The translations under genes were made by a program, and so were the position numbers. A model generated the notes under the pieces. The model was not told the origin of the DNA. It searched no databases and worked only from the letters and a program-made list of their open reading frames with translations. This document shows positions 22,019 through 24,724 of a DNA stretch of 24,950 nucleotides, in pieces. Within the stretch, counting starts at the first letter, position 1; each line of letters starts with the position of its first letter. This DNA comes from Candidatus Hydrothermarchaeales archaeon. GTDB taxonomy: Archaea; Hydrothermarchaeota; Hydrothermarchaeia; Hydrothermarchaeales; SZUA-236. The stretch covers positions 1-24,950 of the forward strand of contig JAZFTJ010000033.1 of the NCBI GenBank assembly GCA_036446635.1, read 5' to 3'.

Positions 22019-24724
22019 CTATTTGATCGACTTGGCGATCTTGGGATCCAAATCAGGGAACTTTGCCAGCCACTCAGTACGCTCCCCCGCCAATTCTTCA
22101 ACATATCTATCTATCTCTTCGGGGGTATAAAATTTGGACGGATCGAATTTAGACATGTCAACCCCTTCAACTTCCTCCGGGATCATGGTCCCGAAGTAAG
22201 GTTCTTTCTTCCATTTAATGGAGTTTCTGGCGATCCCCCTTATGATAGCCGCCATCTCTGGGATCTCTACCCTCAAAACCTTCCGTCTCATGATCTTATT
22301 TCCATCCACATCCTTTTCCATGATCTCCCCTGCACCTCCTGTGTTCAGGAGATAGCATTGTACATTTGGAAAACTCTTTATGATTTCATAGAACATGTTC
22401 CCTTCCTCGGTTTCATCTCCAACGATGAATGGATTCGTCCCAACAACCCTTACAGACTCGCCAACCCTTCTCGGGTCACTGCCAGTAGACTCTATTGATT
22501 CACCCAGCATGAATGCAGCCGCTGCCTGTTCAACGGTTAATTTCGAGGCAATAGGCACAATTGTGTTTCTGCGGGTGATAAATGCAATAATCATGCCATC
22601 AAGCTCAGAAATTGGTGGCAAGTTGATGCTTTCAGATCTGGATTCACCGAACTCCTGCCACTGCATAATCCCTCTTGCATTTCCAGTCAAAGTTTCATCA
22701 CCGAAATACACATCCCCCTTATAATCTACTGCGACGTTCTCAAAAATGGCGTTGGGTTTTGTTACGGCATTGTATATTAATGGTTGGATGTCGGAGGTTA
22801 CGCCCTCAGTCTTTAGATAAAAACCTCGTTCTGTTCCCAAAGCTGAGCAGTCTTTTTTCATGAAGACGACATCGTCTTGGGTGATGCCTATGCCCTCTCC
22901 ATTTTCTGTAAGCCCATGGTTGTGACAGGAGTGGGTTGTCTTACCGGTCGCAGTCAATCCTAAAATGAGCATGCTGTATCTTTTTATCTTCCCCGTCTTT
23001 GCGTCTCGTGCCTTAAGTATCTTAGATCCGGCGTGTAGGCCTAGCATTCCCTGTTGTTTGGCATTCCACATAGCCATTCGCAGGAAGCCCTTCTTTGCTT
23101 CTCCGTAGTAGTCGGTTCCCAAGACAAACGTAACTCCGATCTCAGGGAATACCAGGATCTGCCGGTCCTTCTCCTGCCATTCAGGTATGTAGATTAGATA
23201 CTCATCTGGAGCATTTGTTTTCTTGGAGGTTGGCGCAAAAAGTGTTTGGTTGACCATGTGAGCGAGCCTGATCATCTCATTTCTATGTGTTGAGACGTAT
23301 AGGGTGCAGTGCGGGCTGAAGTCTGGGTCGTCGCCCATGGCTCTCTCGGTACATACTAAAGGTGCGTTTTTCAGATACTTAAGAACTTCATCCACAGTTT
23401 TGGGAAGATTCTTGATGATCTCTCTTTGTCTGGGATTCAGTTTAGATTGTGTAACCCTCTCTGAGCCAACATAAACAGTAAGGGGTGCGCTTCTGTTCTT
23501 GACTGTGGAGACAAAATTGTAGTTTCCGAACTTGGTTTTTGTGCCGTATTGTTCTGCGTCTTCTTTTATCTCTTCTGGTGAGGGATGACGAACGTTTGGT
23601 CTGTCGTAAAGCTTTATGACCGACTTTTTTACCTTTTCCAAGTCCACCAGGGATTCATGGCTTTTCTCGGATTTCTTTATCTCAACCACTTTCTCTGTGA
23701 GGGGACGAGTGTACTCTCTGGACGTGATGATGTTTTTTACTCTCTTCTGCACATCGAAGAGGGGTTTTGACGTATTCAAGCTATAGCAGGCTACGACTTC
23801 TAGGAGATCTTGGTAGAATTCTCGGTACAAGGATTTCCTTTCATCGTCTATCACAAGGATATGTGGGTTGAAGAAGGGCTCAGGAGAATTCTCTAAAAGT
23901 TCGAGTGCTTCTTCTGTGTTCAGTCTCCTTGATATGTCGGGGTCTTTTGGGTTTGGGTTTAATAAAAACAAGACTTTGATCCTTGTTGTATTCACATATT
24001 TCTCTCTGCCACCGATCCACATTGGATCTAGGATCACGTATTCTTCGTCTGATTTGGATCGTTTGAAGATCTCATTTAGGTGGGGGTGTATTTTTCCCAC
24101 ATCTTTTTTGACGTAAAACTTTCTCTCCGAGACATGGGTGGATATCCTCCCTTTTTTCCCTCCCAACCGTTCTAAGTAGATCAATTCGTCGGAATGGATC
24201 CTTGCCCAATCTAATTCAAGAAGTAGGAATGTATGTGTGTATTTGCCGGAACCCAAGGGTCCGCTGAAAACGACTCCTTCGCCGTTAATGTCAACGAGGG
24301 AGCCTCTTAGGAAATGGATCTCTTCTTCTTTCTCAGAGATGTTAAGCACTATTCCTATGGCCAGTGATCTGATCTTTTCGTAGAAGTCTATGTTTATGAC
24401 GATCCCGGTCTTTGATCCTGGATGGTAGTATATCCCTGGCTTGGTGTCTGGTATTCCGGTTATCGCGTATATGACTCCGTGGGATCTCATATTTTCGTCA
24501 ACAGATGCTGGGAACCAGGTCTCTTTCCAGAAGTCGTCTAGGTGGGGGTTGTTGGTTCGTAGTTGGATTATGTTGCCGTTTATGTTTGCATTCCAGACAT
24601 ATAGGGTGTCATAGCTGAGGTATCTCTCGGCCAGTTTGAGCAGTTTATTTCTTTTTGTTAGTGTGATGTGATATTTTGTTTGAATTTCTTTTCCGGCTTT
24701 TTTTTGTGAAATTTTTTTAGACAT
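22019..24724 (-). CDS. pckA: PEP carboxykinase (ATP-type) fused to a ~330-aa N-terminal module carrying a degenerate P-loop
   Basis: The C-terminal ~520 aa align motif-by-motif with E. coli PckA. GTDYYGEAKKGF matches GGTWYGGEMKKGMF. LILGLTATGKTTHS matches kinase-1a FFGLSGTGKTTLS. QPLIYNAV matches EPEIYNAI. YLLNTGGAGE matches YLVNTGWNGT. The N-terminal module contains VVFSGPLGSGKYTHTF at residues ~151-166. It is a single continuous 901-aa ORF. Confidence 0.8.
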   Translation of the reverse strand: MSKKISQKKAGKEIQTKYHITLTKRNKLLKLAERYLSYDTLYVWNANINGNIIQLRTNNPHLDDFWKETWFPASVDENMRSHGVIYAITGIPDTKPGIYYHPGSKTGIVINIDFYEKIRSLAIGIVLNISEKEEEIHFLRGSLVDINGEGVVFSGPLGSGKYTHTFLLLELDWARIHSDELIYLERLGGKKGRISTHVSERKFYVKKDVGKIHPHLNEIFKRSKSDEEYVILDPMWIGGREKYVNTTRIKVLFLLNPNPKDPDISRRLNTEEALELLENSPEPFFNPHILVIDDERKSLYREFYQDLLEVVACYSLNTSKPLFDVQKRVKNIITSREYTRPLTEKVVEIKKSEKSHESLVDLEKVKKSVIKLYDRPNVRHPSPEEIKEDAEQYGTKTKFGNYNFVSTVKNRSAPLTVYVGSERVTQSKLNPRQREIIKNLPKTVDEVLKYLKNAPLVCTERAMGDDPDFSPHCTLYVSTHRNEMIRLAHMVNQTLFAPTSKKTNAPDEYLIYIPEWQEKDRQILVFPEIGVTFVLGTDYYGEAKKGFLRMAMWNAKQQGMLGLHAGSKILKARDAKTGKIKRYSMLILGLTATGKTTHSCHNHGLTENGEGIGITQDDVVFMKKDCSALGTERGFYLKTEGVTSDIQPLIYNAVTKPNAIFENVAVDYKGDVYFGDETLTGNARGIMQWQEFGESRSESINLPPISELDGMIIAFITRRNTIVPIASKLTVEQAAAAFMLGESIESTGSDPRRVGESVRVVGTNPFIVGDETEEGNMFYEIIKSFPNVQCYLLNTGGAGEIMEKDVDGNKIMRRKVLRVEIPEMAAIIRGIARNSIKWKKEPYFGTMIPEEVEGVDMSKFDPSKFYTPEEIDRYVEELAGERTEWLAKFPDLDPKIAKSIK

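What the first reader, a model, noticed from the sequence alone, without database searches (positions are those of the whole stretch)
22019..24724. 901-aa fusion: complete ATP-dependent PEP carboxykinase with a ~330-aa N-terminal module bearing a degenerate PEPCK/HprK-like P-loop
Residues ~380-901 match E. coli PckA through all catalytic motifs. Canonical ATP-PEPCKs are ~530-540 aa, so the first ~330 residues are extra. They contain GPLGSGKYT at position ~155.

This placement mirrors the P-loop position in HPr kinase/phosphorylase, whose kinase domain is structurally PEPCK-like. It also mirrors the PEPCK kinase-1a loop itself.

The extra module could therefore be an ancient tandem duplication of the PEPCK/HprK fold, or a regulatory kinase-like domain. 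I do not recall a PEPCK with this architecture.
Basis: partly seen in the sequence, partly recalled or inferred. Interest (0 to 1): 0.55.

Follow-up and report, generated by a model that had tools for sequence, protein, structure and literature searches.

The report
PEPCK fused to dead PEPCK copy
This 901-residue archaeal protein joins a working PEP carboxykinase to a shrunken, catalytically disabled copy of the same fold, and because bacteria attach that copy to aspartate aminotransferase next to a PEPCK gene, it probably links or regulates the aspartate–oxaloacetate–PEP steps.

Summary
The ORF (22019-24724, minus strand, 901 aa) is real. It is not a frameshift artefact: an independent assembly has a 98%-identical 901-aa ORF, about 58 other 850-913-aa protein clusters exist, and 22 reference archaeal species carry the fusion.

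The module belongs to an older ~340-aa paralog family. Stand-alone members keep the PEPCK catalytic residues. PEPCK-fused modules have lost them:
- His232-equivalent is Arg in 59/60.
- Lys212-equivalent is Arg in 58/60.
- Arg333-equivalent is lost in 59/60.
- A canonical Walker A survives in only 16/60.

Yet 57 positions are at least 95% conserved, so the module is functional but probably not catalytic.

In bacteria the same degenerate module is fused to an AspAT-like aminotransferase. A PEPCK gene lies directly downstream in 22 of 35 assessable loci.

Best reading (inferred): a pseudo-PEPCK partner domain that couples or regulates Asp-OAA-PEP conversion. I found no published description.

The parts
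22019..24724 (-). Complete 901-aa ORF (stop codon at 22019-22021): pseudo-PEPCK module, linker and catalytic PEPCK.
   Evidence: ORF; a 98%-identical intact ORF in an independent assembly; the same architecture in 22 reference archaeal genomes.
23705..24691 (-). N-terminal compact PEPCK-fold module (aa ~12-340), with a degenerate active site.
24236..24262 (-). Degenerate Walker A / kinase-1a loop GPLGSGKYT (aa 155-163). The Lys is kept, but the Mg-ligand Thr255-equivalent is Tyr162.
   Evidence: translation; canonical GxGK[ST] in only 16 of 60 fused modules; the Lys254-equivalent is K 29, I 15, R 8, V 7, N 1.
24368..24370 (-). Arg119, replacing the PEPCK Lys212-equivalent.
   Evidence: R in 58 of 60 PEPCK-fused modules, K in 26 of 27 stand-alone relatives. 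R in 36 of 39 AT-fused modules.
24305..24307 (-). Arg140, replacing the PEPCK Mn2+-ligand His232-equivalent.
   Evidence: R in 59 of 60 PEPCK-fused modules, H in 27 of 27 stand-alone relatives. R in 36 of 39 AT-fused modules.
23597..23704 (-). Poorly conserved Lys/Glu-rich linker (aa 341-376) between the two PEPCK-fold units.
   Evidence: low conservation and variable length in alignment A1. pLDDT falls at the end of the module.
22022..23596 (-). Catalytic PEPCK half (aa 377-901) with all catalytic motifs intact.
   Evidence: It meets the NF006821 cut-off. The motifs YYGEAKKG, LHAG, GLTATGKTT, QDD, GNAR and NTGG are invariant in the subfamily alignment A3.
22934..22960 (-). Functional P-loop GLTATGKTT of the PEPCK half (aa 589-597).
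   Evidence: Invariant in A3.

Best explanation
The protein is a functional PEP carboxykinase (aa 377-901) permanently tethered to a non-catalytic paralog of itself (aa ~12-340), which I call a pseudo-PEPCK domain.

Shown:
- The module has the full two-lobed PEPCK core fold.
- It lacks the last ~100 PEPCK residues. From my knowledge of E. coli PckA, those residues carry the adenine contacts.
- Its former active site has been rebuilt. The Mn2+ ligand His is now Arg140 and the neighbouring Lys is now Arg119. The Arg333 loop is deleted or replaced. The Walker A varies between lineages.
- The module is nevertheless strongly conserved.
- Its sister clade in bacteria is fused to an aspartate-aminotransferase-like enzyme that is usually encoded directly upstream of a PEPCK gene.

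Inferred: the module no longer catalyses phosphoryl transfer. It acts as a built-in partner subunit of PEPCK. It packs against or docks the catalytic PEPCK. It uses its Arg-lined, metal-free former active site to bind an anionic C4/C3 acid, or a phosphate-bearing ligand such as oxaloacetate or PEP. It links PEPCK functionally, perhaps physically, to aspartate aminotransferase, so that labile oxaloacetate is handed on or sensed within the Asp <-> OAA <-> PEP sequence.

In archaea the adaptor is covalently attached to PEPCK. In bacteria it is attached to the aminotransferase, and PEPCK would join in trans.
For: Fold and homology:
- AF2 pLDDT 92.8.
- Foldseek top 35 hits are ATP-PEPCK, E ~1e-14.
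- hhalign 99.25% over 277 columns.
- Stand-alone relative P0007 hits the PEPCK model NF006821 directly at E 3e-8.

Degenerate site in 60 PEPCK-fused modules versus 27 stand-alone relatives:
- His232-eq: R 59/60 vs H 27/27.
- Lys212-eq: R 58/60 vs K 26/27.
- Arg333-eq: Y/H/F 56/60 vs R 26/27.
- Asp268-eq: D only 18/60 vs 25/27.
- Canonical GxGK[ST]: 16/60 vs 22/27.

Still under selection:
- 57 positions are at least 95% conserved across fused modules from several archaeal phyla.
- Mean identity to the window is 55%, against 70% for the PEPCK half, with r = 0.91.

Link to AspAT and PEPCK:
- 39 bacterial species representatives encode an AspAT-like-module fusion.
- In 22 of 35 with enough downstream sequence, a PEPCK gene follows directly on the same strand.
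- That PEPCK belongs to the same subfamily: 42% identity, intact motifs.
- AT-fused modules share the two Arg substitutions (36/39 each).
- In an NJ tree they form the sister clade of the PEPCK-fused modules.
- These operon PEPCKs alone carry a conserved C-terminal tail, RP[KR][KR]xG[FV]WR[WS]R. A strict pattern matched 13 of 21 (most of the other 8 have close variants by eye), against 0 of 118 other PEPCKs. This is compatible with a docking peptide.

Precedent: NDUEG2 of Euglena complex I is a truncated, non-functional PEPCK fold used as a structural subunit (PMC10884005).
Against: - No interaction, binding or activity was tested.
- No aminotransferase gene lies in the window or within 5 kb of any of the 22 archaeal fusions, and there are no conserved neighbours at all. 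The AspAT link in archaea is therefore extrapolated from bacteria.
- 13 of 35 bacterial AT-module loci lack an adjacent PEPCK.
- The window's own module keeps the Walker Lys (GSGKYT). The bacterial variant GPKGTKKTE is conserved, so nucleotide or phosphate binding, and even some chemistry, is not excluded.
- Residue equivalences rest on a remote profile alignment (17% identity) and could be locally shifted.
- The trees are NJ without support values.
Confidence: 0.45

Rival explanations
1. The module is purely an allosteric regulatory half. It is a former catalytic site turned into an effector site that tunes the attached PEPCK, in the way the inactive half of mammalian hexokinase I or the duplicated half of eukaryotic phosphofructokinase works. 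It has no physical connection to aspartate aminotransferase in archaea.
For: - The two active-site cations are replaced by conserved arginines rather than random residues.
- There are many fused-specific invariant Arg residues: R119, R140, R175, R193, R248 and R267.
- P-loop variants are lineage-specific but conserved within each lineage.
- No aminotransferase lies near any archaeal fusion.
- An AsnC/Lrp-type amino-acid-responsive regulator lies directly upstream in the syntenic contig L074. This suggests the gene sits at a regulated node.
Against: - It does not by itself explain why the sister clade of the module is fused to an AspAT-like enzyme in 39 bacterial species and is usually followed by PEPCK.
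- The putative effector pocket (Walker A, Asp268-eq) varies widely between archaeal lineages, which is unexpected for a single conserved effector.
Confidence: 0.27
2. The module is still an enzyme. It would be either a regulatory protein kinase/phosphorylase like HprK/P acting on PEPCK or another target, or a second, metal-independent activity on oxaloacetate or PEP.
For: - The window's module keeps the Walker Lys161 and Thr163.
- About half of the fused modules keep the Lys.
- There is weak HprK similarity around the P-loop. Some fused relatives carry precomputed Hpr_kinase_C hits.
- The strong conservation of the module is also what an enzyme would show.
Against: - The Walker Lys has been replaced by I, V, R or N in 31 of 60 fused modules.
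- Canonical GxGK[ST] occurs in 16 of 60 PEPCK-fused and 1 of 39 AT-fused modules.
- The His232, Lys212, Lys213 and Arg333 equivalents are all lost.
- In the window the Mg-ligand Thr255-equivalent is Tyr162.
- The adenine-binding C-terminal subdomain is absent, because the hhalign match ends at module residue 321.
Confidence: 0.12
3. The module is a recent in-situ tandem duplication of the adjacent PEPCK that is decaying and has no function.
For: Both halves have the PEPCK fold, and the N-terminal one has lost its catalytic residues.
Against: - The module is ~17% identical to its own PEPCK half but 25-40% identical to the separate compact family.
- The compact ~340-aa architecture is shared with stand-alone and AT-fused members.
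- 57 positions are at least 95% conserved across phyla, and the module's divergence tracks that of the PEPCK half with r = 0.91.
Confidence: 0.03
4. The long ORF is an assembly or sequencing artefact that joins two separate genes.
For: Two relatives appear split: L001 as 228 + 673 aa, and L002 as 341 + 538 aa.
Against: - Both splits are single-base frameshifts. The second frame continues exactly as in fused homologues.
- An independent assembly has the intact 901-aa ORF.
- About 58 clusters and 22 reference genomes share the continuous ORF.
Confidence: 0.01

Closest known systems
ATP-dependent PEP carboxykinase (PckA; Pfam PF01293; NCBIfam NF006821 subfamily)
   Different: Canonical enzymes are single ~530-560-aa units. 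Here a second unit is attached in front. That unit is ~200 aa shorter. It lacks the N-terminal ~100 residues, the C-terminal ~100-residue subdomain and, in fused forms, the ENV...NxR loop. It does not reach any PEPCK model threshold and has lost the catalytic residues.
HPr kinase/phosphorylase (HprK/P; Pfam PF07475 Hpr_kinase_C) and HprK-related kinases
   Different: HprK covers only the P-loop lobe (142 residues), whereas the module's N-lobe is PEPCK-like. The window's module scores only E ~0.1 against HprK models. Neither the HprK N-terminal domain nor HPr is involved.
NDUEG2, accessory subunit of Euglena gracilis respiratory complex I (PDB 8j9h)
   Different: It is eukaryotic and mitochondrial, and is part of a membrane complex unrelated to PEPCK or AspAT. 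It is not fused to an active PEPCK. No specific relationship beyond the fold was shown.
PPi-dependent PEPCK (~1,100-1,150 aa; PDB 8e1u)
   Different: PPi-PEPCK is one PEPCK core enlarged by insertions. It is not a tandem of two PEPCK-fold units. The C-terminal half here is an ordinary nucleotide-type PEPCK with a Walker A.
Duplicated enzymes with one degenerate regulatory half (mammalian hexokinase I, eukaryotic phosphofructokinase, JAK pseudokinase-kinase tandems); analogy from my own knowledge, not tested here
   Same: An active catalytic unit is covalently paired with a homologous unit. The homologous unit's active-site residues are lost while the fold stays conserved.
   Different: In those cases the two halves arose by duplication of the same gene. 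Here the degenerate unit comes from an older, already compact paralog family, and the same unit is alternatively fused to a different enzyme (AspAT).

Membership tests
ATP/nucleotide-dependent PEPCK (C-terminal half, aa 377-901) | Scores above the curated family thresholds. | tested here: met
   Pfam PF01293 178.6 bits vs 26.5. NCBIfam NF006821 433.9 bits vs 369.
ATP/nucleotide-dependent PEPCK (C-terminal half, aa 377-901) | Catalytic motifs are present: Y207/K212/K213 loop, H232, kinase-1a GxxGxGKT, D268/D269 and R333 (E. coli numbering). | tested here: met
   YYGEAKKG, LHAGSK, GLTATGKTT, QDD and GNAR are present and invariant in the subfamily alignment.
ATP/nucleotide-dependent PEPCK (C-terminal half, aa 377-901) | Catalyses OAA + NTP <-> PEP + CO2 + NDP; nucleotide specificity. 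| not testable with these tools
   Database names disagree between ATP and GTP for close homologues. I found no biochemical data for this subfamily.
PEPCK family (N-terminal module, aa 12-340) | PEPCK two-lobed core fold. | tested here: met
PEPCK family (N-terminal module, aa 12-340) | Sequence-profile homology to PEPCK. | tested here: met
   hhalign 99.25%, E 5.5e-20, 277 columns. Relative P0007 vs NF006821 gives E 3e-8.
PEPCK family (N-terminal module, aa 12-340) | Reaches the curated PEPCK model thresholds. | tested here: not met
   There is no Pfam or NCBIfam PEPCK hit in residues 1-380.
PEPCK family (N-terminal module, aa 12-340) | Catalytic and metal-binding residues are conserved. | tested here: not met
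   In the window: F114, R119, S120, R140, Y162, E180 and Y229 replace Y207, K212, K213, H232, T255, D269 and R333. The same pattern holds across 60 fused modules.
PEPCK family (N-terminal module, aa 12-340) | C-terminal nucleotide-base-binding subdomain. | tested here: not met
   The alignment ends at module residue 321, which corresponds to PEPCK-part residue 422 of 525. The module ends ~20 residues later.
HPr kinase/phosphorylase | Hpr_kinase_C domain above threshold. | tested here: not met
   The window module scores E ~0.1, 11.7 bits, against cut-offs of 200-240. It has no Pfam PF07475 hit. Only some relatives reach or approach it.
HPr kinase/phosphorylase | Structural match limited to, and best for, the HprK catalytic domain. 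| tested here: not met
Pseudoenzyme (operational definition) | Homologous to an enzyme, key catalytic residues lost, yet under purifying selection. | tested here: met
   Searches show the losses. One search shows 57 positions at least 95% conserved in 60 sequences and 55% mean identity across phyla.
Pseudoenzyme (operational definition) | Demonstrated lack of catalytic activity. | not testable with these tools
   This requires enzymology on the isolated module.

The most novel reading that the evidence does not exclude
The Arg-Arg type pseudo-PEPCK module is a dedicated adaptor. It assembles an aspartate aminotransferase-PEPCK metabolon and hands labile oxaloacetate directly from one enzyme to the other. 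It is attached covalently to PEPCK in archaea (Bathyarchaeia, Asgard, Altiarchaeales and others) and to AspAT in bacteria (Aminicenantes, Calditrichota, Acidobacteriota and others), where PEPCK docks through its conserved C-terminal RPKKPGVWRWR-like tail. The catalytically intact stand-alone relatives would then be a previously unrecognised class of ~340-aa 'mini-PEPCK' enzymes that lack the adenine-binding subdomain.
Probability: 0.25. Interest if true: 0.75.

Novelty: new variant of a known kind. Interest (0 to 1): 0.6.

Why it matters
PEPCK is one of the best-studied enzymes of central carbon metabolism, yet a tandem of an active PEPCK and a dead PEPCK-fold unit turned up in none of my full-text searches. 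Databases label these proteins simply as 'phosphoenolpyruvate carboxykinase', with the first ~340 residues unannotated.

The architecture is common in abundant uncultured anaerobes, including Bathyarchaeia, Asgard archaea and Aminicenantes. Metabolic reconstructions for these groups rely on such annotations.

The alternative fusions (module-PEPCK, and AspAT-module followed by PEPCK) give a directly testable hypothesis for how the unstable intermediate oxaloacetate is handled between amino-acid catabolism and gluconeogenesis. They also add a clean prokaryotic example of a pseudoenzyme recruited as a partner of its catalytic paralog. The stand-alone relatives with intact motifs may be a new compact enzyme family.

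Tried and rejected
1. The first word-indexed homologue search with the module found only 5 relatives and made the fusion look very rare. The exhaustive profile search (278 hits) and the search with the PEPCK half showed that this was a sensitivity artefact.
2. The first AF2 run, with a 6-sequence alignment, gave pLDDT 52.7 with the P-loop lobe unmodelled. I discarded it. A 30-sequence alignment gave pLDDT 92.8.
3. Two apparent 'split gene' cases looked like Rosetta-stone evidence: L001 (228 + 673 aa) and L002 (341 + 538 aa with a 4-nt overlap). Both turned out to be single-base frameshifts of the fused gene.
4. The search for related loci with the broad alignment A2 failed because it had no conserved stretch. 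The narrower A1 worked, but it samples the degenerate clades and hardly any stand-alone members.
5. The afdb50 fold library was unavailable.
6. I searched for an aminotransferase gene in the window and within 5 kb of 22 archaeal fusions, and for any conserved neighbour. I found none. The only recurrent 'neighbour' ORF is an antisense shadow inside the PEPCK coding region.
7. The contexts of stand-alone members P0007 and P0019 were on contigs too short to be informative.
8. Five full-text literature searches found no description of a long or tandem PEPCK, a PEPCK-like N-terminal domain or an AspAT-PEPCK-like fusion. They found only the NDUEG2 precedent.
9. I considered and rejected PPi-PEPCK as the explanation for the extra length. 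The C-terminal half is an ordinary Walker-A PEPCK, and the extra part is a separate fold unit.
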